From: an uncultured Muribaculaceae bacterium
GTDB taxonomy: Bacteria; Bacillota_I; Bacilli_A; RF39; UBA660
Direction of reading: 5' to 3'
NCBI GenBank assembly: GCA_964372175.1
Contig: CAYJPP010000001.1
Span: forward strand, 15,130 to 52,059
DNA length: 36,930 bases
Shown here one piece after another: positions 4,851 to 26,885 of the stretch. Both the position numbers and the translations under genes were made by a program. Every line of letters begins with the position of its first letter. The first letter of the stretch is position 1. Under the pieces are notes generated by a model. The model was given only the letters and a program-made list of their open reading frames with translations. It was not told the origin of the DNA and did not search any database.

Positions 4851-4891
4851 AAAACCTCCACAGGTTTTCACCTGACATAATATTACTAGGT

Positions 4892-4920
4892 ATCTTATCA
4901 TCCTAAGAACTATAAGTCAA
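4892..4920 (-). promoter_or_regulatory. SigA-type promoter for the 1,474-aa gene
   Basis: The minus strand reads TTGACT, a 17-nt spacer, then TAAGAT, about 40 nt upstream of ATG 4850. Confidence 0.4.
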
Positions 4921-6637: not shown

Positions 6638-6660
6638 CAAAAAAGCGAATTTTATTCGCT
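6638..6660 (-). terminator. Rho-independent terminator of the giant gene
   Basis: The minus strand reads AGCGAAT-AAA-ATTCGCT followed by TTTTTTGTTGG. The 7-bp stem encloses the TAA stop at 6652-6654. Confidence 0.6.
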
Positions 6661-9600
6661 CTTAATTATAGTTTTGTCAATTAAATTTAGATCTTCACTA
6701 TTAGTGTAATTATCTTTATTTACATCACCAGCTAGTATGTATCCATCTATAAGTAGTTTAGTTTTGTTAATATGATTACTAAACTCTATTTTATCTAATA
6801 CATTAATTTTAGAATCGCCATTCAAGTCGCCTAATACAATTAGAGTGACTTCATCATAAATAATATCATCTACAACCAACTTAACTTTCATATTAGTACC
6901 TACTATACCAGTATATAAAGCATCATTCTTATATATTTTTATATGTTCACTATTATAAAAATTTTCTATGATTTCTGTGACTGGTATATTTTCTACAATC
7001 ACGTAATCATTATTAATTGTATAAATATCACTTTTTAAAGCTAATGCATCATTATCATTACTAATATTAATCTTATACTCTTGTACTGTATAATTATCAA
7101 CACCTATTACTTCAATTATATAACTATTAGGTAAATTAATATCACCCATTAAATTAACTGTTGCAGCTAAGTCATTAGCAATAGCTGTTATTTCACTTTC
7201 AAGCAACATATTTTTACTACTTGAAACAGCTAGATTATATTCAAACACAGTAGGTTCAAAGTCTATATTGTAGTTTTCTATTTTTAACTCTTTTAATAAT
7301 ACATCTGAAACTTCTTTTGATATATTAAATGTATACTCATTAACACTACCGTCTTCTGCTGTTATTGTAATTAATCTAGTACTTGTTCCATTAAGAATAC
7401 CTACTTGTTCGTGTCCTGTAACAACAGCACTGGTATCTTCAAGTATTACCTCAAATTCCAAAACACTAGCATCGTCTGGTAATATGAGTTCATAAGTTTT
7501 TGTTTCCGGTTCAAAGTTAATATTTCCAAATGAAGGTATAATATTAATAACATTATTATTAGTACTAGCTATTTTATCTACACCTAAATTATAAACATTA
7601 ACTAATCCACTTTCACTTGTTACAGCAACACTTAATTTATTGTTTCCAACTTCTAAATTATAAGATTCTAATCCAACAACAGTTGACTTAGGATCGTCAG
7701 CTACTCCAAATAAAATAACATCTGTAACATCAGGTTCAACTGTAATTTGATAGTCATTTTTATTTTTCACAAATTTAGGATTTAAATCAAATTGTTTATT
7801 TAAATCCCTTATTTGTAAAGAACTTAAATAATTATTATCAGAAATTATCTTATTAACATAAATAAAATATGATCTTTTAATTCCAATTGGCGAGGTAACA
7901 ATAACTTCAATTGTTTTTTCTTTTTCAAAGATTTCAACCGTTCCATCACCACTAACAGTAGCATTTGGATTCATTGTCTCTGTGATTATATCAACCATTG
8001 ATACTTCATTTTCTATATTGATTGTGTATTCTAAAATTTCTGGATTAAACATCGGTTCCATTAAGTGATTAGTAACTTCTAAATTATTCAATAAATTATC
8101 AGTATACATTTTTCTATACACAGTTATTGTATAAGTTTGTTCTGTAACGAAATCAGAAGCTAATACTTTTATTTCAACTGTATTCAATCCTTCTTTGAAT
8201 TCTTCATTACCTATAACTTGTACAAAGCCGTTAGGATCTTCTAACTCATACATCAGATCTAGTGAAGTTGTTTCATTATTAACTTCTATATTATAATCAA
8301 AGATGTTTTTATTGAAATCTGTATCAAAGGGATAATCTGCTGCTTTTAATTCAGTTAACAAAGCTGAATTAAGTTCGTTTCTAGTTATATTAACTTGATA
8401 TGTTTTAACATCACCATTTTCAGCAGTTACTACTACACTTATTTTGTTTTCACCAACAATTAAATCATATTCTCCTACACCTGATACTTTTGCATTACTA
8501 TCACTCGAACTGGCGTATACAAAGGTAGTATCAATCTCATAATCAACAATCAGTTCATAATTTAAAATATCTTTATCGAATACTGGCGTTAAAGGCCCAA
8601 TATCTGTATATAGTTTTTCTAAATCATTATTATTAGAACCTTCTTTTGTTACTATAATAACATATGATTTTGAATTTCCACTTTCACTGGTAACCAATAA
8701 TTGGATTATATTTCTTCCTACTTCCAGTTCGTGAATTCCATTCCCACTTACTACTGCACTTTGTTCTTCTGCAATACCTTCAACCGCAATACTATTAACA
8801 TCATTTAAAACATTCATTGTATAAAATGTTGTCGTTTTGTAAAATACTGGACTGTATTCATAATCCGTTATAATGTCACTTAAATTATTATTATCACTTG
8901 CTTCTTTGGTAACATTGATTTTATATGTTTTAGTTGTGACTAAATCAGGTGCGGTTACTGTAATTTCAATTAAGTTATCTCCTGTTGTTAATACTTCATT
9001 TCCAGTAACTTCATATGTTGACTTTTCTTCTGTCGGTTCAATAATAACAAAGTCTAAATCAGTTTCACTAGTTGTTAAATAGTAATCTGTAACATCTGTT
9101 CTAAAAGATGGATTTAAATTATGTGATTTTATAACAACTGATTTTAATGATGCATCACTACTCAATTTTCTAGTTACAACCACTTGATAATCTAACAAAT
9201 TATTATTTTCATCTAATGCGGTAACTACTAAAACATTTTTACCCTCTTTTAAACTATATGTCCCATTACCTATAATCCTCATACTCTCATCATTCAAAAT
9301 ACCTTCGATAGCTATTTCAGTTATCTCATTTTCAACTGTTACATAATAATCTCTTATTAAACTATCAAATTGTGGTTCTAGAACACCTTCTGATACTGAT
9401 AAATCGAATAAAGTTAAATCGGATAAATGTGGATTTTCTTTGTAAACATTTAAAGTATAGTCTTTTGTGTGAATTAAATCCTCAGCAGTCACTCTTATTA
9501 CAACTTCATTGTAACCTGTTACGAAATTACTGTTTCCAATTACTTCATAAGTAGCATTTTTATCCTCTGGTTCAATGGTAAGAGTTAGTGACTCAACACT

Positions 9601-12600
9601 ATTAGGTACGCGAAGTTGATAATGAATAGTTGTATCTTTAAAAGTTGGATTTAAGGCTGCTTCCTTAGCAAATAAAAAATCCAAATCATCATTTACAGAT
9701 AAATCTCTTATAACATTAACAACATAATCTCTTTCTTCACCACTCTCACTGGTAACTTTAATATTAATATTATTTTCACCAGTTATAAGCGAGTATTTAC
9801 CGTTTCCTGTAACTGTTGCTTTTCTACTTGTTGGAGTAGCTATTATTTCAATTTCATCAACTTCATTTTGAACATTAATTACATAAGTAGAATCATCAAT
9901 TTTACTAACTTCACTATTTTTATTGTTTTCTATTTTTAAAATCGAGTTATCGGTACTGACACCTCTGGTTATTATTAAAGTATAATCTTTTTCAATACCT
10001 GTTTCTGAAACTATTTTAAAATTAATTGTATTTTCTCCTACTTTTAAAGAATAGTTTCCATTCCCTACTACTTTTGAATCATTGTCAACCGGCATTATTT
10101 CTATATCAATAATATCAATGTCATTAGATACATTCATAGTGTATGTAGTTAAAGAATTATCAATAGTTTCATTAATCACACCTTTTGAAGATGTTATGCT
10201 GAATAGTTCGTTATTATCAGATATTTCTTTTGTTATATTTAAAGTATATAATCCAACCGCACCATTTTCAGCAGTAGTTTCAATTAAAATTTTCGTTTCT
10301 GTTTCATTTAAATTATTATTTAATATTTTATAATTAGTTGTCTCTGCTACTGTTGTTGCTGTTATATTTAAATTTGGAAGATGTTTATTAACTGTTAAGT
10401 CATATTCATACACACCACTATTAAATTCAAACGGATAGTTTTCAACAGTTAAAGTTTTTAATCTTGTATCATTATTTTTATCTTTTAAAACATTAATTAT
10501 ATAAACGTTTGATATCCCATTCCCACCAGTAACTGTTATAGTGATTTTAGTGTTTCCAGATTTAATCACATCAGGCTTATCTATTGTAACAACAGAATAT
10601 TCACTTTCTGGGGTTGCTACAATATCTATTGTATTAACATGGCTAGGCAAATTTAATGTATATTCATTAAATGTCTTATCAAACATTGGAGAAAGATTAT
10701 AAGTTTCCTCAGTCTCAAAAATTTCATCATAATTACTAATATTTAAATCCTTTAAAAATACATTAGTATCATTAGCCTTATAAACATATAAGACATAAGT
10801 TCTTTTTGTTCCATCAAATGATGTTACTTTAACAAAAGATACATTCATACCTATTTTTAAGTTCGTATTTCCACTAACTTCCACTGTTGCATTGGAAGCT
10901 TGCGGTGTTGCGATAACATCAAATGAATTATATGCACTATCAATAGTCAGATGATAAGCATGTACATCAGGATTAAAAGTAAAATCTATTACTGGATTAA
11001 CTATATCCAAAGTAGCTAGTTTATTATTACTATTTTGGTCAACTATAAAAGAATAACTGTAAGTACTTTTATTCAGACCGTCCTCGGCGGTTATTTCAAT
11101 TTGAAAGTTATTTATGGTATCTTCCATTGTTACTTGATAGTCTGTTAATGTTATAAATTCATCATTTTGATGTTTTTTCAATACAACTTCTTGATATTTT
11201 TGTGCTTTAACTATATCAAATTCAACATGCATTAAATTTGAAGGAATATTAATAATATAAGAGTTAGTATTTTTATCAAATGTGTAATCACAATATTCTA
11301 TCCCACAAATATATTCATACATTTTATTTATGATAATATCTTCTGGGAAAGGATTACTTGATATTTCTCTTGTTACATTAAATGTATAAGTTCTGATTTG
11401 CCCATTAGAAGCAGTTACTATCAATTCATATACTTGTGATTCAGCAGTAACTTCTTTAAGACCTGTTCCCACAACATATGCTTCATTATCTTTTGTGAGA
11501 GCTTCTATATCTAGTTCAGTTTGATGTTCAGTTAAATGTATATCATACTCTAAAACCCAAGGTTCGAAATCGATTTCAACTGAGCCATCATTCAATATTA
11601 TATTATCTAAGTAATTATTATTATTAGATTCAATGACAGTTATTTTAGCGTATCCGTTCCCACTATGTCCGGTTCCATAAGGATATAAACTACCAGTTGT
11701 ATTAGGCATCTGGCTTCTGCCACCTCGCACGTTACTCCAATGATAAGCATAACCATCAATCATTGATGTATTAGAGAATTTTAATCCAGAATAATGAACA
11801 GAACATCCATTATTTGTAGTTCCGGTCGTACATCCAGCTTTTGGAGCTTGGTTTGTAGCAGATGTTATTGCAACTGATCCTGTGTGACCAGATATGTATG
11901 ATGAACCACCACCGCCAGATCCAACAACAGAAGAGTTATAAGAGCCTCCTCCTCCGCCATAGTAGCCGCCTCCGCCACCGCTTCCATGACTATATTCTGG
12001 CATTCCACCAATCCCAAAACTACCATTTGTTGCACATCTATAACCACAACCTGCATTACCACCTGCTGTTTGTGTTCCACCAGTTGCATTTGCATAGTAA
12101 TTAGACCACGAACGATATTCACGCCCGTTATATCCAACTAATCCACCACCAGGTGAAGCGTTAGAAACTGGATACATCCAGTTAGAAATCCCCGATCCAG
12201 CACCAGCTACCATTATTCTACTACGTAAACTAGTAGCATCGTTCCAGGTTCCACCTACTAATCTAATATCCGTGGCACCGCCACTACCAGCACCATAAGT
12301 CTGTCCATTATAAGGTCGCCCTTCGCCTCCACCGTTATAACCACCGGTTTGATTGTTTGAAACAGTTCCAGATAATTTTCCTTGTCCGCCGACTTGAATA
12401 TATAGAGTTTGGTCTTTGTTAAGAGCAACAGTTCCAGCCGTATAAGCTCCTCTACCACCTAATAAAGAACCGTTATTTCCCCCTTGTGCGCCCCAAAGTT
12501 CTATTTTGTATAAGCTATCATATGGAGCGGTAAAAGTCTGAACACTTCCTGTAAATCCAAAATTAAAAGGATCTATTTTTAAAACTTCTTTATTAATTTT

Positions 12601-14430
12601 TAATTTATAAACACTAGTATCAAGACCTTCTATCGAAGAGGTAATTGTTATAATATCAGTATGTTCAAAGTACTTATTGCCTTCAACTGTTATAATGGCT
12701 TCTTTTAAATACGGCTCGGTTGTTACATCAAGCGCATACAAAAGATTAGAAACATCGAGTGTATAATTAGCTGTCGAGCTACTAAAAGCAAAATCAATAT
12801 TTGGATCACTCAAAGTAATGTTTTTTAATTTTGTGGTTCTTTCTTTTTCAAAATTAAATGTATAGATGTTAGTTCCACTGTTATCTTCTGCAACGACTAG
12901 TATAACAAACATCATACTTTGTTCATCAAATTGAAATATTGTATCTTCAAAACCGTTTATAGTAACTCCTTGATAAGGCATGTTTTTTAATACATCTAAT
13001 TTTATTTCTTCTGTATCATAAGGCATTGTTATGTTATATTCAAATATATTACTATCAAATTCAGAATATAATGTATCATTTATTTTAATCCCATCTAGTA
13101 TGGTGGTGCTGGATGGTTCTCTAATTAGATTAATTTCATAAAGTTGAGTTCTCCCAGTTGAATTTGTAACTGATAACGTATGTTTATGGCTATTAGGTTT
13201 AACACTTATTGTTGTTTGTCCAACTATTTGTTGTCCTGTTGGTGCACTTGCTGTAATTACAGCTTCTTTTACCATAGTGTCTAAATTTAAACTGTAACTA
13301 AATATGCCACCCGTCAAAGATATAGACTCACCATTTACAGTAATTGAATTTAACATCGGATCAATTACTTCTTCTTCATAAGTTATTTTTGCATATCCAT
13401 TTCCACTATGACCCACACCATTAGCATTAAGCCCTCCACTTGTAGTTGGCATTCTCAAATACCCGCCTTTTGTGTTAGTCCATTTATAACCAAAACCGTC
13501 AATCATAACAGTTTCAGTAAAAGTCATACCTGAATAATGAATAGAACAATTATTATTTGTAGTCCCAGTTGTACAACCTGATTTAGGTGCTTGGTTTGTA
13601 GCCGAAGTAATCGCTACTGAACCTGTATGGCCGGAAATATACGATGATCCTCCTGAACCGGAACCAACATGGCCGTGGTTATAAGCACCACCACCACCAC
13701 CGTAGTAGCCTCCTCCACCGCCACTTCCGTGTCCGCTTTCTGCTGCACCGCCAATTCCAAATGTTCCAGAACTCCCACATTTAAGACCACAAGACCTAGT
13801 TCCACCAGCAGTTTGAGTAGCCCCTGTTGCATTAGTTAATGGATCACCACTATGACTAACACTTCTACCAGGATAACCAATTAAACCACCAGCAGGTGCG
13901 GCATTGGAAATAGGCGATTGCCAGTTTGATAACCCCGATCCTGCTCCTGCCACCATAATTCTACTGCGTAAACTAGTTGCATTATTCCACTCACCGCCTA
14001 CTAACCTAACATCAGTTGCGCCGCCACTACCAGCACCATAAGTAGCTCCAGAATATGCTCTTGCTTCTTGCCCGCCATTATACCCAGCAGTAACACTAGC
14101 CGAACCAGCAAGTTTACCTTGGCCGCCAACTTGGATAAATATAGTTTGCCCTTTAATAAGCTCTACAACACCAGCTGTATAAGCTCCTCTACCACCAAGT
14201 AAAGAACCATTATTCCCACCTTGGGCCCCCCAAAGTTCTATCTTGTAAAATCCACTAACTGGCGCTGTAAATGATTGAACATTACCAGTATACCCAAAAT
14301 TATAAATCGTCCCTAAATTGGGCGCAGCTATTTCTTGATTTAAACTAATCTGATAATTAGAATTATCATTTAAAATATTAAAAATTAAAATACTACAAAT
14401 TAAAAGTACGAAGATAGCAAGTTTTTTCAT
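6652..14430 (-). CDS. Giant secreted protein of 2,592 aa. It has a signal peptide, two glycine-rich (ALK/LTK-type, PF12810-like) domains, 20 cadherin-like beta-sandwich modules and a C-terminal dockerin.
   Basis: A single uninterrupted ORF starting MKKLAIFVLLICSILIF, with SD AAGGTG upstream. Domain motifs are given under the repeat features below. No LPXTG motif and no TM anchor. Confidence 0.9.
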   Translation of the reverse strand: MKKLAIFVLLICSILIFNILNDNSNYQISLNQEIAAPNLGTIYNFGYTGNVQSFTAPVSGFYKIELWGAQGGNNGSLLGGRGAYTAGVVELIKGQTIFIQVGGQGKLAGSASVTAGYNGGQEARAYSGATYGAGSGGATDVRLVGGEWNNATSLRSRIMVAGAGSGLSNWQSPISNAAPAGGLIGYPGRSVSHSGDPLTNATGATQTAGGTRSCGLKCGSSGTFGIGGAAESGHGSGGGGGYYGGGGGAYNHGHVGSGSGGSSYISGHTGSVAITSATNQAPKSGCTTGTTNNNCSIHYSGMTFTETVMIDGFGYKWTNTKGGYLRMPTTSGGLNANGVGHSGNGYAKITYEEEVIDPMLNSITVNGESISLTGGIFSYSLNLDTMVKEAVITASAPTGQQIVGQTTISVKPNSHKHTLSVTNSTGRTQLYEINLIREPSSTTILDGIKINDTLYSEFDSNIFEYNITMPYDTEEIKLDVLKNMPYQGVTINGFEDTIFQFDEQSMMFVILVVAEDNSGTNIYTFNFEKERTTKLKNITLSDPNIDFAFSSSTANYTLDVSNLLYALDVTTEPYLKEAIITVEGNKYFEHTDIITITSSIEGLDTSVYKLKINKEVLKIDPFNFGFTGSVQTFTAPYDSLYKIELWGAQGGNNGSLLGGRGAYTAGTVALNKDQTLYIQVGGQGKLSGTVSNNQTGGYNGGGEGRPYNGQTYGAGSGGATDIRLVGGTWNDATSLRSRIMVAGAGSGISNWMYPVSNASPGGGLVGYNGREYRSWSNYYANATGGTQTAGGNAGCGYRCATNGSFGIGGMPEYSHGSGGGGGYYGGGGGSYNSSVVGSGGGGSSYISGHTGSVAITSATNQAPKAGCTTGTTNNGCSVHYSGLKFSNTSMIDGYAYHWSNVRGGRSQMPNTTGSLYPYGTGHSGNGYAKITVIESNNNNYLDNIILNDGSVEIDFEPWVLEYDIHLTEHQTELDIEALTKDNEAYVVGTGLKEVTAESQVYELIVTASNGQIRTYTFNVTREISSNPFPEDIIINKMYEYICGIEYCDYTFDKNTNSYIINIPSNLMHVEFDIVKAQKYQEVVLKKHQNDEFITLTDYQVTMEDTINNFQIEITAEDGLNKSTYSYSFIVDQNSNNKLATLDIVNPVIDFTFNPDVHAYHLTIDSAYNSFDVIATPQASNATVEVSGNTNLKIGMNVSFVKVTSFDGTKRTYVLYVYKANDTNVFLKDLNISNYDEIFETEETYNLSPMFDKTFNEYTLNLPSHVNTIDIVATPESEYSVVTIDKPDVIKSGNTKITITVTGGNGISNVYIINVLKDKNNDTRLKTLTVENYPFEFNSGVYEYDLTVNKHLPNLNITATTVAETTNYKILNNNLNETETKILIETTAENGAVGLYTLNITKEISDNNELFSITSSKGVINETIDNSLTTYTMNVSNDIDIIDIEIMPVDNDSKVVGNGNYSLKVGENTINFKIVSETGIEKDYTLIITRGVSTDNSILKIENNKNSEVSKIDDSTYVINVQNEVDEIEIIATPTSRKATVTGNGKYSLITGENNINIKVTSESGEERDYVVNVIRDLSVNDDLDFLFAKEAALNPTFKDTTIHYQLRVPNSVESLTLTIEPEDKNATYEVIGNSNFVTGYNEVVIRVTAEDLIHTKDYTLNVYKENPHLSDLTLFDLSVSEGVLEPQFDSLIRDYYVTVENEITEIAIEGILNDESMRIIGNGTYSLKEGKNVLVVTALDENNNLLDYQVVVTRKLSSDASLKSVVIKSHNLNPSFRTDVTDYYLTTSETDLDFVIIEPTEEKSTYEVTGNEVLTTGDNLIEITVTAPDLVTTKTYKINVTKEASDNNNLSDIITDYEYSPVFYKTTTFYTMNVLNDVNSIAVEGIAEEQSAVVSGNGIHELEVGRNIIQLLVTSESGNSKSYVIIVTKEGSNNNDLEKLYTDIGPLTPVFDKDILNYELIVDYEIDTTFVYASSSDSNAKVSGVGEYDLIVGENKISVVVTAENGDVKTYQVNITRNELNSALLTELKAADYPFDTDFNKNIFDYNIEVNNETTSLDLMYELEDPNGFVQVIGNEEFKEGLNTVEIKVLASDFVTEQTYTITVYRKMYTDNLLNNLEVTNHLMEPMFNPEILEYTINIENEVSMVDIITETMNPNATVSGDGTVEIFEKEKTIEVIVTSPIGIKRSYFIYVNKIISDNNYLSSLQIRDLNKQFDLNPKFVKNKNDYQITVEPDVTDVILFGVADDPKSTVVGLESYNLEVGNNKLSVAVTSESGLVNVYNLGVDKIASTNNNVINIIPSFGNINFEPETKTYELILPDDASVLEFEVILEDTSAVVTGHEQVGILNGTSTRLITITAEDGSVNEYTFNISKEVSDVLLKELKIENYNIDFEPTVFEYNLAVSSSKNMLLESEITAIANDLAATVNLMGDINLPNSYIIEVIGVDNYTVQEYKINISNDNDALALKSDIYTINNDYVIVENIPVTEIIENFYNSEHIKIYKNDALYTGIVGTNMKVKLVVDDIIYDEVTLIVLGDLNGDSKINVLDKIEFSNHINKTKLLIDGYILAGDVNKDNYTNSEDLNLIDKTIIKSE
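6655..6834 (-). other. Dockerin type I-like module, the last 60 aa of the giant protein
   Basis: There are two F-hand Ca-binding loops with D1-N3-D5-D12 spacing, about 35 aa apart: DLNGDSKINVLD and DVNKDNYTNSED. The preceding context is TLIVLGDLNGD. Confidence 0.65.
7045..11637 (-). repeat. Array of 17 tandem cadherin-like beta-sandwich modules of about 90 aa (protein-level repeats)
   Basis: The recurrent pattern is L..L.v....l.P.F......Y.l.V......i.i.a......a.v.GnG.y.L..GeN.i.i.VtsE.G....Y.i.V.R. Examples are SLKSVVIKSHNLNPSFRTDVTDYYLT...YKINVTKE and DLEKLYTDIGPLTPVFDKDILNYELIV...YQVNITRN. The modules have diverged at the DNA level. Confidence 0.7.
11638..12570 (-). repeat. Glycine-rich domain, copy 2 (aa ~621-931)
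   Basis: Motifs in order: FNFGFTGSVQTFTAP, YKIELWGAQGGNNGSLLGGRGAYTAG, YIQVGGQGK, YGAGSGGATDIRLVGG, SRIMVAGAGSG, HGSGGGGGYYGGGGG, GGSSYISGHTGSVAITSATNQAPK, GNGYAKIT. Confidence 0.7.
12571..13380 (-). repeat. Three cadherin-like modules between the two glycine-rich domains
   Basis: aa ~351-620, for example MLNSITVNGESISL...YEINLIRE, ILDGIKINDTLYSEFDSNIFEYNITM...YTFNFEKE and KLKNITLSDPNIDFAFSSSTANYTLDV...YKLKINKE. Confidence 0.6.
13381..14307 (-). repeat. Glycine-rich domain, copy 1 (aa ~42-350)
   Basis: The motifs are collinear with copy 2: YNFGYTGNVQSFTAP, YKIELWGAQGGNNGSLLGGRGAYTAG, HGSGGGGGYYGGGGG, GNGYAKIT. By eye roughly 70% of residues are identical, while synonymous sites have diverged. 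Confidence 0.7.
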
Positions 14431-20157: not shown

Positions 20158-21302
20158 TTTATATTAATTCCCATTTCACTTGCTTGTTGTCTACTTTTAA
20201 CATCTATTTTTAATTTAGTTAATCTGGAAGCAAGTTTAACGTTTATTCCTTTTTTCCCAATCGCTAATGAAAGATTGTCGTCATCTGCAATAACTAGTGC
20301 TTCTTTATCATCTGTTACTAAAATTGTTAAATTTTTAGCTGGGCTTAAAGCACTTTCAATAAATTTTTGTTTATCTGTATTGTATTCAACTATATCTATT
20401 TTTTCTTTACTTAGTTCTTTTAATATATTAGCTATACGCATTCCTCGTTCACCTATACATGCACCTATTGCATCTATATTAGATATTTCTGAATAAACAG
20501 CTACTTTCGTTCTAATGCCTGCTTCTCTGGCAACACTATACACTAATACTTTGCCTTCGTTTATTTCTGGAATTTGTAGTTCAAATAATCTTTTTACAAA
20601 ACCATAATGAGTTCTAGATAATAAAATTAATGGACCTTTTGTTGTTGCTTCTACTTTTGTAACATAAACTTTTATATTTGTTCCCATTTTAATTTCTTCA
20701 CCTGGAATAATCTCTGTTTTAGGTAAGATACCTTGTGTTCTTCCTAAGTCTATGTAGTAGTTTCTTACATCTTCCATAGCAACTAAACCTGATAATAATT
20801 CATCTTGTTTGCTTTCAAATTCAGAAATTATAATATTTTTTTCAGCTTCTTTTATTTTTTGAATAACAACTTGTTTAGCAGTTGCAGCTGCAACTCTACC
20901 AAAATCTTTTGGTGTTACTTCTTCTTCGATTGTTTCCCCTACTTCAATACCTGGAACTTCTTTTCTAGCATCTTCTAATGTGATATGGATTCTTTCATCA
21001 TAAATATACGGTTTTTCTATTTCAATAGTAGCGCCTTCTTCTTCTGAATCCTCATCTTCAACAACTAATATAATCGGCTCATATGCTTCTTGCTCTTTAT
21101 CGACAACAACTGTCTTAAAAGAGTAAACATGAATATCATTTTTTTTACGATCAAATTCAATTCTAACATTTGATAAAGATTTATAGTTTTTCTTATAAGC
21201 AGATGTTAACGCTAATTCCATAGCTTGATAAATAGTTTCTTCATCTATTCCTTTTTCTTTTACTAATAAATCTATTGCTTGTTTAAACTTTTTCGTTTCC
21301 AT
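20154..21302 (-). CDS. nusA: Transcription termination/antitermination factor NusA
   Basis: 382 aa with an N-terminal domain, an S1 domain and two KH domains (GERGMRIANI, AIGKKGINVKLASRLT). It overlaps ylxR by 4 nt. Confidence 0.95.
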   Translation of the reverse strand: METKKFKQAIDLLVKEKGIDEETIYQAMELALTSAYKKNYKSLSNVRIEFDRKKNDIHVYSFKTVVVDKEQEAYEPIILVVEDEDSEEEGATIEIEKPYIYDERIHITLEDARKEVPGIEVGETIEEEVTPKDFGRVAAATAKQVVIQKIKEAEKNIIISEFESKQDELLSGLVAMEDVRNYYIDLGRTQGILPKTEIIPGEEIKMGTNIKVYVTKVEATTKGPLILLSRTHYGFVKRLFELQIPEINEGKVLVYSVAREAGIRTKVAVYSEISNIDAIGACIGERGMRIANILKELSKEKIDIVEYNTDKQKFIESALSPAKNLTILVTDDKEALVIADDDNLSLAIGKKGINVKLASRLTKLKIDVKSRQQASEMGINIK

Positions 21303-21550
21303 TATACACTTCCTTTCTCCTTAGAACAAACGTCCAAAATGTAATTATCATCTAATTCTTTAATGTCATCTAGTAATGGGCTAATAATTTTATTTGCTTC
21401 CACACAATCATTAATATTGATAAAACCGTCTTTATCAATAACCACTCTTAAAAAATAATTACTACCTTCTTTTTCATAAGTTACTTCATCTAAAATGTAA
21501 CCTTTTTCTTTGATGTTTGTTTCAATTAAATCTTTGACTTTCTCTAACAT
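21302..21550 (-). CDS. rimP: Ribosome maturation factor RimP, short form of 82 aa (N-terminal domain only)
   Basis: I place the start at ATG 21550 (MLEKVKDLIETNIKEKGYILDEVTYEKEGSNYFLRVVIDKDG), with GGAGG 4 nt upstream. The extra track ORF sequence covers the structured leader. The stop overlaps the nusA ATG (TAATG). Confidence 0.75.
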   Translation of the reverse strand: MLEKVKDLIETNIKEKGYILDEVTYEKEGSNYFLRVVIDKDGFININDCVEANKIISPLLDDIKELDDNYILDVCSKEKGSV

Positions 21551-21560
21551 AAAACCTCCA

Positions 21561-21588
21561 TAATTTAAAGAGTGGGTATTCCCCACTC
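21561..21588 (-). promoter_or_regulatory. Leader hairpin with an interrupted U-tract upstream of rimP-nusA, a candidate attenuator
   Basis: The minus strand reads GAGTGGG-gaata-CCCACTC followed by TTTAAATT. It lies between the extended -10 promoter and the rimP SD. Confidence 0.45.
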
Positions 21589-21602
21589 CTTGTTGCATAT
21601 TA

Positions 21603-21631
21603 ATTATATCATAGTTTTTATCCAATTAGAA
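21603..21631 (-). promoter_or_regulatory. Promoter of the rimP-nusA-ylxR-infB operon
   Basis: The minus strand reads TTCTAA, a 17-nt spacer, then TGaTATAAT. The extended -10 compensates for a weak -35. Confidence 0.4.
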
Positions 21632-21641
21632 CCTTTTTATA

Positions 21642-23867
21642 TTATTTTATTACAAATTTTAATTGGCAATCAATTTCAGTTTCTTTATCATCGATTAATT
21701 TTAGCATTTCTGCAAAGTTATTACGATAAATATGTTTATTAGATAATAATATTTCATGTAATTTGGAAACAATTACATATTCAGTTGTACCTCTATTTAA
21801 TTGTTTTTTTAATTTTAATAATTCTTTACAAAAATTTTCATCTGTTATAACATCAGTTTTAATTGCTGCTACATAATAAATGATTTTTTTTATATAAGAT
21901 AATCTGTCTAATATTTTTTTTAATCGTTCAATAGTAATATTCTTTTCAAAAATTGCAGTAAGTGCTAAATCAGCTTGTTCAGTTAAAATCATCTTTAACT
22001 CTTTTTCTTTTTCTAAATTAATTTCTAGTATATACATTCTAACTAATTGTGAACGAATTGGTCCATTTTCGGTATTTTCGAGAGCTAACTTTTTCGCTTC
22101 TTCAAATTCTTTCAAAGCTCTACATACTGTTATTAACTGTGATTTTATAACTAAATTATGTACATGTTGATATCCTAATTGTTTTGCTATTTTTAAATAT
22201 TCTACTTTTCTTGTACTTGTTATACTTAAACAACTTTTAATTACTTCTGAAGCAGAGTATTCATCAAAGTTATATTTTAATCCATATTCAACAACTCGTT
22301 CATGTTGATTTTCTTCTCTTAAGGCCTTTAAAAATCTATGTTGATGTTTCAACTCATTTGGATATTTTTTTGCTATTTCACTTAGAATTATTGATTCTTT
22401 TATCTCAGAAGTTTCTGCCAGTCCATTTTCTAAAATATACTTTTCTCTTATTTCAATTTCTTCTCGTAGTTCTAAAAATGTGTCACCCACCAATTCTAAA
22501 TTTGCATAATATTTAGCTTTTTTTAAATCACCTTGTAATATATATATTCTAATTAACCGGGCACGAATTGGTTCATATTCGGTATTTTCGAGTGCTAATG
22601 TTTCAGCTTCTTCAAATTCCTTCAAAGCTATACATACTGTTATTAACTGTGATTTTATAGTTAAATTATGTACATGTTGATATCCTAATTGTTTTGCTAT
22701 TTTTAAATATTCTATTTTTCTTTTACTTGTTATACTTAAACAACTTTTAATTACTTCAAAAGCACAGTGTTCATCAAAGTTATATTTTAATCCATATTCA
22801 ACAACTCGTTCATGTTGATTTTCTTCTCTTAAGGCCTTTAAAAATCTATGTTGATGTTTCAACTCATTTGGATATTTTTTTGCTATTTCACTTAGAATTA
22901 TTGATTCTTTTATCTCAGAAGTTTCTGCCAGTCCATTTTCTAAAATATACTTTTCTCTTATTTCAATTTCTTCTCGTAGTTCTAAAAATGTGTCACCCAC
23001 CAATTCTAAATTTGCATAATATTTAGCTTTTTTTAAATCACCTTGTAATATATATATTCTAATTAACTGAGCACGAATTGGTCCATATTCGGTATTTTCG
23101 AGAGCTAACTTTTTCGCTTCTTCAAATTCTTTCAAAGCTATACATACTGTTATTAACTGTGATTTTATAACTAAATTATGCATATATTGATATCCTAGTT
23201 GTTGTGCTATTTTTAAATATTCTATTTTTCTTTTACTTGTTATACTTAAACAGTTTTTAATTATTTCTGAAACAAAATATTCATCAGAAACATACTTCAA
23301 ACCAAATTCAATAGCGCTTTCATATTCCTTTGCTTCTCTTAAAATTCTTAAATAGAAGTATTGCCATTTCATATAAGTTGGATACTTTTTTGCCATTTCA
23401 TAAATATATTCAAGATTATTACTTTCATAAATTTTTTTAAAATTTCCTTGTGACGCATATAGTTCAATTAATTGTGAACGAATAGGTAGATAACATGTAC
23501 TTTCAAGTGCCAATTTTTCTGCTATCTTAATTTCTTTTAATTCTATACACACGGTTATTAATTGTGATTTTATAACTAAATTATGCATATATTGATATCC
23601 TAGTTGTTGTGCGACTTTTAAGTAATATATTCTTTTTTTATTTTCCATCGGTATACTTAAACAAGTTTTAATTGTTTGTGAAATAAAGTATTCATCATCA
23701 GTATATTTTAATCCAAGTTCAATTGCTCTTTCATATTGCTGTTCTTTTCTTAAAATTTTTAAAAAAAGATATTGTACTTCTTTATTATCTGGATATTCTT
23801 CTGCCATTTTGTGAAAATATTTATAATCCTTCCTATCATATGCATTTTTTAAATCTTCTTCTAACAT
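21642..23867 (-). CDS. Helical (TPR-like) repeat protein of 741 aa, function unknown
   Basis: Four internal units, each starting at YP (YPDNKE, YPTYMK, YPNELK, YPNELK). They are followed by a unique C-terminal region of about 120 aa. SD AAGGAG upstream. No signal peptide or TM segment. Confidence 0.8.
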   Translation of the reverse strand: MLEEDLKNAYDRKDYKYFHKMAEEYPDNKEVQYLFLKILRKEQQYERAIELGLKYTDDEYFISQTIKTCLSIPMENKKRIYYLKVAQQLGYQYMHNLVIKSQLITVCIELKEIKIAEKLALESTCYLPIRSQLIELYASQGNFKKIYESNNLEYIYEMAKKYPTYMKWQYFYLRILREAKEYESAIEFGLKYVSDEYFVSEIIKNCLSITSKRKIEYLKIAQQLGYQYMHNLVIKSQLITVCIALKEFEEAKKLALENTEYGPIRAQLIRIYILQGDLKKAKYYANLELVGDTFLELREEIEIREKYILENGLAETSEIKESIILSEIAKKYPNELKHQHRFLKALREENQHERVVEYGLKYNFDEHCAFEVIKSCLSITSKRKIEYLKIAKQLGYQHVHNLTIKSQLITVCIALKEFEEAETLALENTEYEPIRARLIRIYILQGDLKKAKYYANLELVGDTFLELREEIEIREKYILENGLAETSEIKESIILSEIAKKYPNELKHQHRFLKALREENQHERVVEYGLKYNFDEYSASEVIKSCLSITSTRKVEYLKIAKQLGYQHVHNLVIKSQLITVCRALKEFEEAKKLALENTENGPIRSQLVRMYILEINLEKEKELKMILTEQADLALTAIFEKNITIERLKKILDRLSYIKKIIYYVAAIKTDVITDENFCKELLKLKKQLNRGTTEYVIVSKLHEILLSNKHIYRNNFAEMLKLIDDKETEIDCQLKFVIK
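22023..23795 (-). repeat. Intragenic tandem repeat with a 510-bp (170-aa) period in units 2-4. It contains a 298-bp perfect direct repeat.
   Basis: nt 22260-22557 match nt 22770-23067 base for base in my alignment, at an offset of 510. Flanking unit sequence is about 85-95% identical. Unit 1 is shorter and more diverged. Confidence 0.85.
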
Positions 23868-23891
23868 AAGTTTCTCCTTTTTTGATTATTT

Positions 23892-23920
23892 ATTATACTT
23901 AAATATAGTTATGATGTCAA
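23892..23920 (-). promoter_or_regulatory. Perfect consensus SigA promoter of the repeat-protein gene
   Basis: The minus strand reads TTGACA, tcataactatatttaag (17 nt), then TATAAT, about 25 nt upstream of ATG 23867. Confidence 0.6.
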
Positions 23921-23945
23921 ACAAAAACATCAGATGTATTCTGAT
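23918..23945 (-). terminator. Rho-independent terminator after the ferredoxin gene, which ends the ecf-truA-kinase operon
   Basis: The minus strand reads ATCAGA-ataca-TCTGAT followed by GTTTTTGTTT, starting 1 nt after the stop at 23947. Confidence 0.55.
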
Positions 23946-23946
23946 A

Positions 23947-24669
23947 TTATTTTTTTAAATACTGATTTATATTATACCCATCTTTGAATTCAATAAATTT
24001 TGATAATCTAGGGTGGATTGCTTTTTTAGGACAATTATATATACAACTCATACACATCATACATTTCAAACTGAATTTCGGCTTTTTATTAACTTTAATG
24101 TTATTTCTAGGACATGTTTTTTGACATAACCCACAAGATATACAATTATTATTTGCTTTTAGTTCTAACCCAAATAATCTTACCATAAAATTTTCAATTC
24201 CATGTATATGATAAAATATTTTTGATTTAAAAGGAATTTTAACTTTATCATTTTTATTGTTTAAAATACTCTTAGAAATTTTATCAATTTCATTACTTGC
24301 TTGTTTAATTATTTTTCTACCATATTTTATATCAAATTTTTTAACAATTGTTAAAGGCATTGCTATAACTTTATATACCCCTATTTCAATATTGTTCTTT
24401 TTAGCGTATTTTAACACTTTTAATCCGGCTGTTTGATTTACAAAGCTATTATTACACCCTACCATTATTAAGCTAATTTTATTGACATTCCCTATATTTT
24501 CAATTAAATTATTAGGAATTCTAAATGCATGAATAGAACTCATTATAATTAAGTGTTCACAAGGTGTTTTTCTATTATCAATTTGACAATTTAACTTTTC
24601 TTTTAAAATATTAGCTAAATATTTAGTATTTCCAGTCGCACTAAATAATAATATTTGATATTTACTCAT
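23947..24669 (-). CDS. EFR1-type ferredoxin: a flavodoxin-like N-domain fused to a 2x[4Fe-4S] domain
   Basis: 240 aa. ILLFSATGNTKYLA (flavodoxin-like) plus CISCGLCQKTCP and CMMCMSCIYNCP. Confidence 0.75.
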   Translation of the reverse strand: MSKYQILLFSATGNTKYLANILKEKLNCQIDNRKTPCEHLIIMSSIHAFRIPNNLIENIGNVNKISLIMVGCNNSFVNQTAGLKVLKYAKKNNIEIGVYKVIAMPLTIVKKFDIKYGRKIIKQASNEIDKISKSILNNKNDKVKIPFKSKIFYHIHGIENFMVRLFGLELKANNNCISCGLCQKTCPRNNIKVNKKPKFSLKCMMCMSCIYNCPKKAIHPRLSKFIEFKDGYNINQYLKK

Positions 24670-24697: not shown

Positions 24698-25048
24698 TTA
24701 TAGCTTTTTAGTATGTTCTTTTTCTATTTGAGGTAATATTGTTAAGTAAAAATTATCCTGTATATTAAAAATATTTAGACTAATTAAAACATCATATACA
24801 TCCATGTTTTTATATTCTTTTATATAAAGTGGTAATCGCCTTGTAAAGAAATTTGGTAATTGATTAAAAGAAATTACTTCATCATATGTTTTTGTATAAA
24901 AAGGTAATACACAACCGTGTTCTTTTGCGAGTTTTGCTTCTTTAAAATACTTAAACAAATATCCTGTTTCTGTCTTTATTAATTGTCCTATATGAATTGT
25001 TCTGTTTTCTTTATATGAAAGCCATGTTAAGTATATAGTTTCATTCAT
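24698..25048 (-). CDS. HipS-like protein, a stand-alone homologue of HipA N-terminal subdomain 1
   Basis: 116 aa. TIHIGQLIKTETGYLFKYFKEA...LPNFFTRRLP parallels the HipA N-terminus (RVGELTKLANGAHTFKYAPEW...VFNFFDNLLPD). The ATG overlaps the kinase stop (ATGA), and GGAGGG lies 8 nt upstream. Confidence 0.55.
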   Translation of the reverse strand: MNETIYLTWLSYKENRTIHIGQLIKTETGYLFKYFKEAKLAKEHGCVLPFYTKTYDEVISFNQLPNFFTRRLPLYIKEYKNMDVYDVLISLNIFNIQDNFYLTILPQIEKEHTKKL

Positions 25049-26151
25049 ATTGACTTCCCTCCAATTTCAAAATTTTGTTCAAAGTAATTAACCATCCATT
25101 CAGCTCTTCTAAGTACTAATTCCTCGGCAAAAATTAACCTTTCTGTTGGTATTTCATCTACATACGTATTTAGTATCCCAGTAATACTTTCAAGAGTTAT
25201 ATTTTCTTTTATTTTTGACATTATGTCTTTAATTTCGTTTGGATAAAATGTTGTTAAATATTCAATTAATGGTTGATATGTAACTGTAGTAACATCGAAT
25301 TTTTTATATTTTTTTTCAATATTCTTTAATCTTTTGTGATATTCAGAAATACTTAGCATTCTTTTTTCTACTAGTGCTTCTAACTGTTTTTTTTCGGTGT
25401 GGATTTCTGATAATATTTTAGTTATTTGATGATTATCCCATGTTCTTTTTTCTTTATACTGTAAGCTTCTCTCTATCGTTAGTTTACTTGTTATGTGTTT
25501 ATGGATTACAACATTTAACATTTCATCATTAATTTCTAGCGTTCGAAGGCTAATACATTTATCTAATCTCTCATCTCCCATTGACATTCCAAAAGATGTG
25601 CAGCTATCATACAATGGTGAGAATGTATGAGTTCCTGTTTGAAGATCATTTATTATTCCGTAATTAGATGGATTTCTATCTCTATTAGCTATTAGAGCAT
25701 CAAAAACAATCATTTCTAGTGCTTCTTTAATTAACCCATATTTTCCAACAGATTCTAAGAGTAGTGAAACAGTATATAATTGGTGTGTGTCAGGATTTAG
25801 TAACTGCATATTTTTAAAACCTGGATCAATCATCCTAATCAAACTTACACCATCAACCAACTCATAACGTTTAGGTGATGATTCATTATTTAAAAAGTTT
25901 TTTGATATTACACCTTTTTTTCCATTTTTAACACATAAATTATACTCTGCAACTGGAATGTCGAGCAGCTTCCCTACATCTGATGCGATACATTCAGATA
26001 CATCATTATAGACTGAACTCCCATCTTTTCTTATTGTAGCAATTTTAAATAAGTATAACTCATTATCTAAAACAACCCATTCCTTCTTTTGTTTACCTAA
26101 GGCTTCATATAAATAAAATTCGCTTGCATCAATATTTCTTCTCATAATCAC
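25045..26151 (-). CDS. HipA/HipT-like Ser/Thr kinase core lacking N-subdomain 1
   Basis: 368 aa. P-loop-like ALGKQKKEW (compare HipA GAQEK), catalytic FDALIANRDRNPSNYGII (compare GATDGHAKNFSVF) and the Mg-binding SPLYD (compare TPFYD). The start is either GTG 26151, overlapping the truA TGA, or ATG 26145. Confidence 0.7.
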   Translation of the reverse strand: MIMRRNIDASEFYLYEALGKQKKEWVVLDNELYLFKIATIRKDGSSVYNDVSECIASDVGKLLDIPVAEYNLCVKNGKKGVISKNFLNNESSPKRYELVDGVSLIRMIDPGFKNMQLLNPDTHQLYTVSLLLESVGKYGLIKEALEMIVFDALIANRDRNPSNYGIINDLQTGTHTFSPLYDSCTSFGMSMGDERLDKCISLRTLEINDEMLNVVIHKHITSKLTIERSLQYKEKRTWDNHQITKILSEIHTEKKQLEALVEKRMLSISEYHKRLKNIEKKYKKFDVTTVTYQPLIEYLTTFYPNEIKDIMSKIKENITLESITGILNTYVDEIPTERLIFAEELVLRRAEWMVNYFEQNFEIGGKSI

Positions 26152-26885
26152 ATATAGAAAACATTTTTTAAATATAATCCTTCTGGCGGCGCAGTTATTC
26201 CGGCCTTTGTTCTATCTTTTGATTCAATTATATCTAAAACTTCTTCACTCTTTCTTTTACCTTCACCAATCTCAATTAAAGTACCTACCATATTTCTAAC
26301 TTGATACCTTAAAAATCCTGTTCCCAAAAACACTAGTGTTAGTTCATTAACATTTTTTAAATTCCTAATAATATTTGTTTGAACAATTGTTCTGACACAG
26401 TCTTTTTCTTCATCCGTTTTAGCAAATGCTTTAAAATCTTTTGTACCTTCTAATTGTTTTAAGCCTCGTTCAATTTCTATAATATCTAACCTTTTATTGT
26501 GTTGATATATATATTTTCTTTCAATAGGATTATATTCTCCCATATTAATTTTATAAATATACTCCTTAGCTTTTACATTAAATCTAGCATGAAAGTCTTT
26601 ATCAACTTCTTCAACTTCTTTAATATAAATGTCTTTTGGTAATAAACTATTTAAAGATTGTTTTAATTTGTTAATAGGTATTTTTTTTTCTAAATCAAAA
26701 TGTGCTTTTTGATTTAAAGCATGCACACCAGCATCTGTTCTTCCAGATGCATGAATACTTATATCAGTTGTAGTTATTTTTTTTAAAACTGCTTCTATCT
26801 CATTTTGGACTGTTTTACCTTTTAATTGTTTTTGATATCCATTATAAGAAGAACCATCATAACTAAACGTTATTAAGTATCTCAT
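26148..26885 (-). CDS. truA: tRNA pseudouridine(38-40) synthase
   Basis: 245 aa. GRTDAGVHA catalytic motif. ATGA overlap with ecfT. The position after the ecf genes is conserved in Firmicutes. Confidence 0.95.
   Translation of the reverse strand: MRYLITFSYDGSSYNGYQKQLKGKTVQNEIEAVLKKITTTDISIHASGRTDAGVHALNQKAHFDLEKKIPINKLKQSLNSLLPKDIYIKEVEEVDKDFHARFNVKAKEYIYKINMGEYNPIERKYIYQHNKRLDIIEIERGLKQLEGTKDFKAFAKTDEEKDCVRTIVQTNIIRNLKNVNELTLVFLGTGFLRYQVRNMVGTLIEIGEGKRKSEEVLDIIESKDRTKAGITAPPEGLYLKNVFYM

What the first reader, a model, noticed from the sequence alone, without database searches (positions are those of the whole stretch)
21642..23920. A 741-aa helical-repeat protein is built from 510-bp tandem units with a 298-bp perfect repeat and a textbook consensus promoter
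The protein consists of four YP-initiated units (aa 25-161, 162-331, 332-501 and 502-~615) and a unique C-terminal region of about 120 aa. Units 2-4 have an exact 170-aa (510-bp) period. nt 22260-22557 are base-for-base identical to 22770-23067, while the surrounding unit sequence has scattered substitutions. The perfect block straddles unit boundaries, which is the signature of recent unequal crossing-over or gene conversion, so copy number may vary between strains or cells. The gene lies between the ecf-truA operon terminator and the rimP-nusA promoter. Its promoter is TTGACA-17-TATAAT exactly, and its SD is AAGGAG, which implies high expression. There is no signal peptide. The sequence resembles TPR/Sel1-type helical hairpins, but I cannot assign a family or function.
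Basis: seen in the sequence. Interest (0 to 1): 0.65.

Follow-up and report, generated by a model that had tools for sequence, protein, structure and literature searches.

The report
Recently quadruplicated helical-repeat protein gene
An uncultured gut bacterium carries an uncharacterised, fast-evolving helical-repeat protein gene whose 170-residue module was copied to four tandem units very recently; the repeat is real, but the function is still only inferred.

Summary
A 741-aa ORF lies on the minus strand (21642-23867). It has three 510-bp-phased units plus an older first unit. A 298-bp block (22260-22557 = 22770-23067) is base-perfect. The promoter is the only exact TTGACA-17-TATAAT in the window, and the SD is AAGGAG.

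The protein is predicted all-alpha, a TPR-like solenoid, but its basic hairpin is 30 residues, not 34 or 35. It has no signal peptide or TM segment.

It belongs to a small unnamed family: 18 relatives among 1.84 billion representatives, and the one that carries a name is called hypothetical. Most relatives carry an N-terminal HTH. One relative is fused to, or sits directly after, a sigma-70 gene. Near-identical alleles of relatives differ by exactly 30 or 60 aa.

The nearest sequenced relative has a one-unit, 352-aa orthologue at the same truA-X-rimP position. That orthologue keeps the consensus promoter but is only 35% identical, while flanking proteins are 73-86% identical.

So the gene is a fast-evolving protein that expanded recently by tandem duplication and gene conversion. 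It most likely acts as a partner-binding module, possibly linked to transcription.

Neither the unit number nor expression could be checked, because no reads were available.

The parts
21642..23867 (-). CDS of the 741-aa helical-repeat protein (stop TAA at 21642-21644)
   Evidence: Only ORF in the window that matches the family's 30-aa repeat HMM.
23892..23920 (-). Sigma-70-type promoter, TTGACA-17-TATAAT (12 of 12)
   Evidence: Both hexamers and the spacing are conserved upstream of the L001 orthologue.
23874..23879 (-). Shine-Dalgarno AAGGAG, 6 nt before the ATG
   Evidence: read from the sequence
23918..23948 (-). Terminator-like hairpin (9-bp stem at 23926-23948) plus T-tract. It ends the upstream EFR1-ferredoxin transcription unit and abuts the -35.
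   Evidence: -8 kcal/mol, z -2.9. An analogous hairpin follows truA in L001.
23445..23867 (-). Unit 1 (aa 1-141). It is the oldest copy and lacks the 20-aa linker helix.
   Evidence: 60% identical to unit 2
22935..23444 (-). Unit 2 (aa 142-311, 510 nt)
22425..22934 (-). Unit 3 (aa 312-481, 510 nt). Mosaic: head identical to unit 4, tail identical to unit 2.
22008..22424 (-). Unit 4 (aa 482-620). It loses homology to the other units after about 135 residues.
21645..22007 (-). Non-repeated C-terminal helical module (aa 621-741)
   Evidence: Shared with the L001 orthologue. Model pLDDT 82.7, no PDB fold match.
22770..23067 (.). Perfect 298-bp block, copy A (aa 267-366, unit 2/3 junction)
22260..22557 (.). 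Perfect 298-bp block, copy B (aa 437-536, unit 3/4 junction)

Best explanation
This is a real, promoter-equipped gene for a soluble cytoplasmic alpha-solenoid protein.

Building block: a 30-residue helix-turn-helix hairpin. The family consensus is IQSQLITIYMKQGKYEEAEEIAKKFPNNEP, and the window has I[KR]SQLI..[CY]. Four to five hairpins plus a 20-residue linker helix form a module of about 170 residues.

History: after the split from the nearest sequenced relative (one module, 352 aa), the module was duplicated in tandem. It went first to two copies, then to four. RecA-type unequal crossing-over or gene conversion between the 510-bp units has kept them similar. The latest event left a 298-bp stretch with no differences. 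These steps are shown by the sequence.

Function (inferred): the solenoid binds a protein or peptide partner, and the duplication multiplies binding sites. Most relatives tether the same repeat array to an N-terminal HTH, or to a sigma-70 factor by fusion or adjacency. The partner is therefore most likely part of transcription control. The window protein has no DNA-binding domain, so it would act in trans as a stand-alone binding or regulatory module. Fast divergence and repeat turnover suggest that the binding specificity is changing.
For: Repeat and mosaic structure.

Coding is maintained: a 741-codon ORF in a 28% GC genome, TAA stop, and TGA used as a stop elsewhere in the window. dN/dS between units is 0.36-0.7.

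One-unit orthologue in the same truA-X-rimP position: L001/P0004. The window units are 51-87% identical to each other but only 24-28% identical to the L001 unit.

Promoter: its hexamers are conserved between the two species, and it is the only perfect match in the window.

Fold: all-alpha hairpins with a 30-residue start-to-start spacing. Foldseek hits are exclusively TPR/HAT/PPR solenoids. TPR_19 is passed by a single unit.

Family specificity: only 18 hits at E<=1e-3 among 1.84 billion representatives, and all carry the same 30-aa motif.

Transcription link in relatives: HTH_Tnp_1 or HTH_23 lies at the N-terminus in roughly 40 of 58 P0001 relatives. Full sigma-70 regions 1.2-4 are fused to the array in P0060, P0063 and P0087. 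A sigma-70 gene sits directly upstream of P0078 in a syntenic locus.

Fast evolution: 35% identity to the orthologue, against 86% (NusA), 85% (YlxR), 83% (TruA) and 72.5% (RimP).

Repeat-number polymorphism in relatives.
Against: No transcript, protein or read data exist for this gene.

The functional inference comes from relatives that share only the repeat array, at about 31% identity. The window protein and its orthologue lack any HTH.

Homology of the C-terminal module to the wider family is unproven. hhalign gives probability 39% and E 3e-4. The family HMM does not score the window C-terminus above shuffles. BLASTP against P0005 is not significant.

Gene neighbourhoods of relatives are not conserved.

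dN/dS of about 0.6 between units is also compatible with relaxed constraint.

Sigma-70 adjacency or fusion was seen in one lineage only.
Confidence: 0.6

Rival explanations
1. The unit count, and possibly the mosaic unit 3, is an assembly product. The 298-bp perfect block makes a loop in a short-read graph (block + unit-3 middle) that can be traversed any number of times. The true gene may therefore have 3, 4 or more units, or the population may be mixed.
For: The perfect block is longer than typical reads and k-mers. According to the protein collection, the source contig is a 52-kb NCBI contig, which is typical of a MAG. The gene was not found in any other assembly or run. A paper on high-internal-conservation repeats states that long reads are needed to reconstruct such domains (PMC13449251).
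Against: Units 2, 3 and 4 each carry private substitutions in their middles, so at least three 510-bp-phased units exist in some genome. The reading frame is intact throughout. The loop itself (block - unit-3 middle - block) must exist in a real molecule.
Confidence: 0.2
2. It is a modular nucleic-acid-binding repeat protein of the PPR/PUF kind. It would act on RNA of the neighbouring transcription and translation operon (rimP-nusA-ylxR-infB-rbfA).
For: Relatives sum to above-threshold scores on PPR profiles (PF01535, TIGR00756). The hairpin has a conserved polar Q-S-Q motif. The gene, its orthologue and some relatives sit next to translation genes such as infC-rpmI-rplT and rsgA. Most relatives have a mildly basic pI.
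Against: The window protein has no PPR hit at E<=0.1. No single PPR stretch is significant in any relative. The period is 30, not 35. The window protein is nearly neutral (pI 8.0, net charge +4 over 741 aa). Related genomes keep the rimP leader without this gene. Adjacency to translation genes is expected by chance in small genomes.
Confidence: 0.1
3. It has no specific function. It would be a lineage-restricted ORF under relaxed constraint, whose repeats expand and contract neutrally by recombination.
For: Only 35% identity to the orthologue, against 73-86% for its neighbours. dN/dS between units is 0.6-0.7 overall. The gene is absent from this locus in about 60 related genomes.
Against: A 2.2-kb open frame is maintained in an AT-rich genome. 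A perfect promoter and SD are conserved across species. The predicted fold is confident. The motif-bearing half of the units has dN/dS 0.36.
Confidence: 0.08
4. It is a surface-exposed or secreted variable antigen whose repeat number changes for immune or phage evasion.
For: Tandem, recently homogenised repeats and fast divergence.
Against: No signal peptide, lipobox, TM segment or wall anchor: the N-terminus is charged and the maximum hydropathy is 1.1. Relatives carry cytoplasmic HTH or sigma domains.
Confidence: 0.02

Closest known systems
TPR-clan helical-repeat proteins (Pfam TPR_19, PF14559; structural neighbours CTR9, Ski3, IFT-A TPR subunits, Naa15, APC/C subunits)
   Same: Stacked antiparallel helix hairpins form a solenoid. 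The profile match is above the curated cut-off even for one unit. All top Foldseek hits are of this class.
   Different: The hairpin period is 30 residues, not 34. The conserved residues are the polar I-x-S-Q-L motif rather than the TPR W4/G8/Y11/A20/P32 pattern (the TPR pattern is from my own knowledge). The hairpins are organised into a 170-residue higher-order unit. TM-scores are only 0.2-0.3.
Unnamed family of 'IQSQLITIY' 30-residue-repeat proteins from uncultured gut Bacilli/Mycoplasmatota-like MAGs (P0001, P0002, P0003, P0006, P0010 and others; the single source name on record is 'hypothetical protein')
   Same: Same 30-residue hairpin and motif. These are the only proteins found by an exhaustive HMMER search. 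They also change repeat number between near-identical alleles.
   Different: Most relatives have an N-terminal HTH or a sigma-70 link, which the window protein lacks. In the window only the last two hairpins of each unit keep the motif. Duplication acted on whole 170-aa modules rather than single hairpins. C-terminal module homology is unproven.
RRNPP/AimR-type HTH-TPR signal receptors
   Same: The HTH-bearing relatives share the general plan of an N-terminal DNA-binding domain followed by a helical-repeat ligand-binding domain.
   Different: The HTH in relatives is of the IS3-transposase, HTH_23 or sigma-region-4 type, not the XRE type (own knowledge). No small peptide gene lies next to the window gene. 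The window protein has no HTH. The family's repeats are far more regular.
High-internal-conservation (HIC) repeat domains of fungal NLRs (PMC13449251)
   Same: Near-identical tandem superstructure-forming repeats. Length polymorphism. Unequal crossing-over or gene conversion proposed as the homogenising mechanism. Fast evolution. Long reads needed for correct assembly.
   Different: No NACHT or NB-ARC ATPase and no death effector domain. The gene is bacterial. The repeat unit is 170 aa rather than 33-42 aa. No evidence of an immune role (no PADLOC hit).
Clathrin heavy-chain repeat (CHCR, PF00637)
   Same: A super-unit of about 145 residues built from helical hairpins of about 30 residues (own knowledge). 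Relatives P0001, P0003 and P0006 score above the PF00637 cut-off.
   Different: The window protein has no PF00637 hit at E<=0.1. Nothing indicates common descent or a coat function. This is probably convergence of short hairpins.

Membership tests
TPR clan (PF14559 TPR_19) | Profile match above Pfam's gathering score | tested here: met
   Whole protein 55.6 bits and unit 2 alone 29.6 bits, against a cut-off of 25. Units 1 and 3 alone score 21-23 bits.
TPR clan (PF14559 TPR_19) | 34-residue repeat period | tested here: not met
   The period is 30 residues in relatives and in the motif-bearing hairpins of the window protein. Helix starts in the model are at 97/127, 232/262 and 166/196.
TPR clan (PF14559 TPR_19) | Antiparallel helix hairpins stacked into a solenoid | tested here: met
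   By prediction only: AF2 pLDDT 79 with 80-95 in the repeats, and Foldseek top hits are all TPR/HAT/PPR solenoids.
Sel1-like repeats | Match to a Sel1 profile and a 36-44-residue period | tested here: not met
   No Sel1 family among the Pfam hits at E<=0.1. The period is 30.
PPR (PF01535/TIGR00756) | 35-residue repeats with individually significant profile matches | tested here: not met
   The window protein has no PPR hit. Relatives reach the cut-off only by summed scores, with 0 significant stretches.
RRNPP/AimR HTH-TPR receptors | N-terminal HTH DNA-binding domain | tested here: not met
   No HTH family hit in the window protein or in P0004. The protein starts directly with a hairpin.
RRNPP/AimR HTH-TPR receptors | Adjacent small gene for a secreted signalling peptide | tested here: not met
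   The 90-nt interval before rimP holds only the rimP promoter, a leader hairpin and the SD.
Unnamed IQSQL 30-residue-repeat family (P0001-like) | Arrays of 30-residue hairpins with the I-[QKR]-S-Q-L-I..Y motif | tested here: met
   A repeat HMM built from relatives hits the window protein 13 times. The best single hits score 22-26 bits. phmmer E is 3.7e-30 to P0001 in 1.84 billion proteins.
Unnamed IQSQL 30-residue-repeat family (P0001-like) | Shared C-terminal helical module (..AIYEKLG..F-D-x-x-x-W..) | tested here: inconclusive
   The alignment is collinear and hhalign gives E 3e-4, but probability is only 39%. The HMM scores the window C-terminus at -0.4 bits, below shuffles. The P0004 C-terminus scores 9.9 bits. 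BLASTP against P0005 is not significant.
Unnamed IQSQL 30-residue-repeat family (P0001-like) | N-terminal HTH, or a sigma-70 link (present in most members) | tested here: not met
   Absent from the window protein and from its orthologue P0004. Also absent from some relatives (P0001, P0006).
Known anti-phage defence proteins (PADLOC) | Match to a defence-system profile | tested here: not met
   Only a 15.9-bit hit with no significant stretch.

The most novel reading that the evidence does not exclude
The window protein and its relatives could be an undescribed bacterial class of rapidly diversifying intracellular recognition modules. These would be 30-residue helical-hairpin arrays of high internal conservation whose number and sequence are reshuffled by recombination. 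They are usually wired to transcription through an HTH or a sigma-70 factor. The window gene would be a stand-alone, module-quadruplicated form that acts in trans, for example as a multivalent modulator or decoy for a sigma or transcription factor, or for a foreign (phage) protein.
Probability: 0.15. Interest if true: 0.7.

Novelty: new variant of a known kind. Interest (0 to 1): 0.42.

Why it matters
The gene is a clear bacterial example of very recent protein growth by duplication of whole modules, with gene conversion caught in progress. It lies in a reduced-genome gut lineage where gene gain is rare.

It also points to an unannotated 30-residue helical-repeat family. That family is repeatedly joined to DNA-binding or sigma-factor domains, and its alleles differ in repeat number. 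If the repeats set binding specificity, the family would be a compact system for studying how regulators or sensors change targets.

There is a practical point too. Loci of this kind are easily mis-assembled. This one was also hidden from protein searches, because its 90%-identity cluster is represented by an unrelated 43-aa fragment.

Tried and rejected
Protein searches:
- Two word-indexed protein searches (single protein, then an 18-sequence alignment) returned nothing. The exact look-up explains the first result. The protein is in the collection, but its 90% cluster is represented by an unrelated 43-aa fragment, P0020.

Searches for close relatives, all empty:
- GTDB species genomes.
- JGI metagenomes with the protein, and then with a C-terminal alignment.
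- IMG/VR (the alignment was too diverged to search with).
- GenBank phages by tblastn.

Reads and source contig:
- Sequencing-run look-ups for the repeat and for the nusA-infB region listed no runs.
- The exact-protein contig look-up found no record. Copy number and expression therefore could not be tested.

Rejected hits:
- Pfam hits to RelA_SpoT (35 bits) and NAMPT_N (36 bits) on the whole protein are repeat-sum artefacts. On single units they fall to 15-18 bits, below the cut-offs, and the predicted fold is all-alpha.

Other negatives:
- NCBIfam gave no family.
- PDB sequence search gave only E of about 0.16.
- PADLOC gave nothing for this protein.
- Rfam gave nothing in 21300-24100.
- TRF missed the array because the period exceeds 500.
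- Fold search of the C-terminal module found no match (best E 0.83).
- Neighbourhoods of four relatives share no partner gene.
Full report
**1. Observation**

The ORF is on the minus strand (21642-23867). It is 741 aa long, starts with ATG and stops with TAA. 'YP' occurs at aa 25, 162, 332 and 502. The repeat finder reports copies spaced 510, 510 and about 405-411 nt.

The block 22260-22557 equals 22770-23067 at all 298 positions, and it is the longest exact run at offset 510. Outside it, the homologous stretch at that offset differs at 49 of 452 positions. A 298-nt run of identity would then arise with probability of about 1e-15. In protein terms the two copies are aa 267-366 and aa 437-536. 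They span the unit 2/3 and unit 3/4 junctions.

TTGACA-17-TATAAT at 23920-23892 is the only exact match in the window, where 0.04 are expected by chance. AAGGAG lies 6 nt before the ATG. There is no hydrophobic N-terminus or TM segment.

One correction is needed. Between truA (26148-26885) and this gene lie a HipA-like kinase, a HipA-N-like protein and an EFR1-family ferredoxin. A terminator-like hairpin does abut the -35.

**2. Source organism and locus**

The window has 28% GC and uses TGA as a stop codon. Its gene order on the minus strand is: ecfA-ecfA'-ecfT-truA, hipA-like pair, EFR1 ferredoxin, X, rimP-nusA-ylxR-infB-rbfA.

NusA is 86% identical to that of MAG contig CAYJEP010000063 (locus L001). 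It is 75-82% identical to NusA of a set of uncultured gut 'Bacilli/Tenericutes' MAGs, including Candidatus Faecisoma.

**3. Orthologue**

L001 has truA, then a 352-aa protein, then rimP and nusA. That protein (P0004) aligns to one repeat unit plus the C-terminal module of the window protein. Identity is about 35%. The flanking proteins are far closer: NusA 86%, YlxR 85%, TruA 83% and RimP 72.5%.

The window's units are 51-87% identical to one another but only 24-28% identical to the L001 unit. The multiplication, or the homogenisation, therefore post-dates the split of the two lineages. About 60 other related genomes carry different genes upstream of rimP, so X at this locus is lineage-restricted.

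Both promoter hexamers, their 17-nt spacing and the upstream terminator-like hairpin are conserved in L001, while the surrounding DNA has diverged. This is the best available evidence that the promoter is functional.

**4. History of the repeat**

Codon-by-codon comparison shows a mosaic.
- Unit 3 equals unit 4 over its first 55 codons.
- Unit 3 equals unit 2 over its last 45 or so codons.
- Unit 3's middle has private changes, for example EAETLAL against EAKKLAL in units 2 and 4.

The units fall into age layers:
- Unit 1 vs unit 2: 60% aa identity.
- Unit 2 vs unit 3: dS about 0.29.
- Unit 3 vs unit 4: dS about 0.10.
- The perfect block: no differences.

This is what repeated unequal crossing-over or gene conversion between tandem 510-bp units produces. 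dN/dS is 0.36 in the motif-bearing half and 0.6-0.7 overall. The protein is constrained, but not strongly.

One caveat is my inference. In a short-read graph, the block plus the unit-3 middle forms a loop of undetermined multiplicity. Four units is therefore a minimum-traversal answer unless long reads were used.

**5. Fold**

The full-length AlphaFold2 model used an 18-sequence alignment. It has mean pLDDT 79, with 80-95 across the repeats. It is all-alpha, made of helices of about 13 and about 9 residues. Helix starts recur every 30 residues, with one 36-residue hairpin per unit. A 20-residue helix (aa 292-311 and 462-481) links the units.

Foldseek against the PDB returns only long TPR/HAT/PPR solenoids: CTR9, Ski3, IFT-A subunits, Naa15, APC/C subunits and a designed PPR. 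E-values are 1e-9 to 1e-6 and TM-scores are low, at 0.2-0.3.

Pfam TPR_19 is passed by the whole protein and by unit 2 alone. The RelA_SpoT and NAMPT_N hits are repeat-sum artefacts.

The C-terminal 141 residues model confidently as a six-helix module (pLDDT 82.7). They have no PDB counterpart.

**6. Family**

An exhaustive HMMER scan of 1.84 billion representatives gave just 18 hits at E<=1e-3. The best was 3.7e-30 at 31% identity. None of those looked up carries a name in its source.

All 18 contain arrays of a 30-residue hairpin with consensus IQSQLITIYMKQGKYEEAEEIAKKFPNNEP. Positions I1, Q2, S3, Q4, Y9 and A18 are almost invariant. In the window protein the last two hairpins of each unit keep this motif (IKSQLITVC..., IRAQLIRIY...). 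The others are degenerate.

A search seeded with the best relative (P0001) found 58 proteins, and the only one that carries a name is called 'hypothetical protein'.
- About 40 have an N-terminal HTH (HTH_Tnp_1, HTH_23 or HTH_28).
- Three (P0060, P0063, P0087) are fusions of a complete sigma-70 (regions 1.2, 2, 3, 4) to the repeat array and its C-terminal part.
- In a syntenic locus of another MAG, the sigma-70 gene and the repeat gene (P0078) are adjacent and separate.

Other neighbourhoods are not conserved.

Alleles that are at least 98% identical differ by exact multiples of one hairpin. Cluster 3 has 622, 592 and 532 aa. Cluster 7 has 637, 607 and 577 aa. This is repeat-number polymorphism, unless it reflects systematic short-read collapse.

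Homology of the window's C-terminal module to the family's C-terminal module is suggestive only.

**7. Mechanism**

Shown:
- An intact gene with consensus expression signals.
- A predicted cytoplasmic helical solenoid.
- Recent tandem module duplication with gene conversion.
- Much faster divergence than the neighbouring genes.

Inferred:
- The solenoid binds a protein or peptide partner.
- Most relatives tether the same array to DNA-binding or sigma domains. The partner or pathway is therefore probably transcriptional, and the HTH-less window protein would act in trans.
- Multiplying the module multiplies binding sites.

The evolutionary behaviour resembles the 'high internal conservation' repeats of fungal NLR sensors. 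In those, unequal crossing-over is thought to generate new specificities, and long reads are required for correct assembly (PMC13449251).

Rivals, in order of weight:
- A wrong unit count from assembly.
- PPR/PUF-like RNA binding.
- No specific function.
- A surface antigen (least likely).

**8. Verdict**

The protein is a TPR-like, but 30-residue-period, helical-repeat protein of a small uncharacterised family. It is a new variant of a known kind rather than a new kind of system.

Interest is moderate. The module-level expansion, the rapid evolution and the family's recurrent link to HTH and sigma-70 domains are worth a follow-up. Function, expression and copy number remain untested.

Noticed in passing
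window 21553-21612 (-), upstream of rimP; L001 1930-2000 and about 20 other loci: The rimP leader is conserved. It has an extended -10 (TGATATAAT), then a 10-bp hairpin GGAGUGGGG-AAUA-CCCACUCUUU followed by AAAUUAU, then the SD GGAGG (-16.1 kcal/mol, z -3.6). It is almost identical in L001. The GAGTGGG...CCCACTCTTTAAT hairpin recurs upstream of rimP across the clade, with varying loops. There is no Rfam match. It may be a NusA-dependent autoregulatory attenuator, as known for B. subtilis nusA (own knowledge).
   Followed up: partly
window 24698-26151 (-): A HipA-like kinase (368 aa) and a HipA-N-like protein (116 aa) match the PADLOC candidate defence system PDC-M03 (A: 5e-39, B: 5e-8). The pair and the EFR1 ferredoxin (23947-24669) are absent from L001, where truA directly precedes the repeat gene. 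The kinase ORF overlaps the truA stop by 4 nt (26148-26151).
   Followed up: partly
L087 4184-7776; L088 1103-4585; L089 673-4155: A relative of the repeat family is fused to a complete sigma-70 in two metagenome assemblies (1160 aa). In a syntenic MAG locus the sigma-70 gene and the repeat gene are separate and adjacent. There, the C-terminal extension of the sigma (a sigma-region-4-like HTH module) is duplicated at the start of the repeat protein.
   Followed up: partly
protein clusters of P0002 and P0006 (relatives, not in the window): Alleles at least 98% identical differ by internal indels of exactly 30 or 60 aa (one or two hairpins): 622/592/532 aa and 637/607/577 aa. This is either real repeat-number polymorphism or systematic short-read collapse.
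   Followed up: yes
window 21642-23867 (protein P0019): In the public protein collection, the window protein's 90%-identity cluster is represented by an unrelated 43-aa fragment (P0020). Representative-based searches therefore cannot find the protein.
   Followed up: yes
window 426-4901 and 6652-14430 (-): Two giant ORFs. The 2592-aa one has Cadherin-like beta-sandwich domains, ALK/LTK glycine-rich domains and a C-terminal dockerin. The 1491-aa one has an M26 IgA1-protease N-terminal region and an F5/8 type C domain. These are probably surface or adhesion proteins. A 538-aa ORF between them has no Pfam hit.
   Followed up: no
window 21302-21550 (-): RimP here is only about 82 aa (N-terminal domain only). 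The mechanical ORF start (TTG at 21625) is upstream of the real ATG at 21550, which has the SD GGAGG.
   Followed up: no
L001, L002, L004, L015 (record titles): Several MAG records that are closest to the window are titled 'uncultured Muribaculaceae'. Their NusA and gene order group them with Bacilli/Mycoplasmatota-like MAGs, so the taxonomic labels are probably wrong.
   Followed up: no
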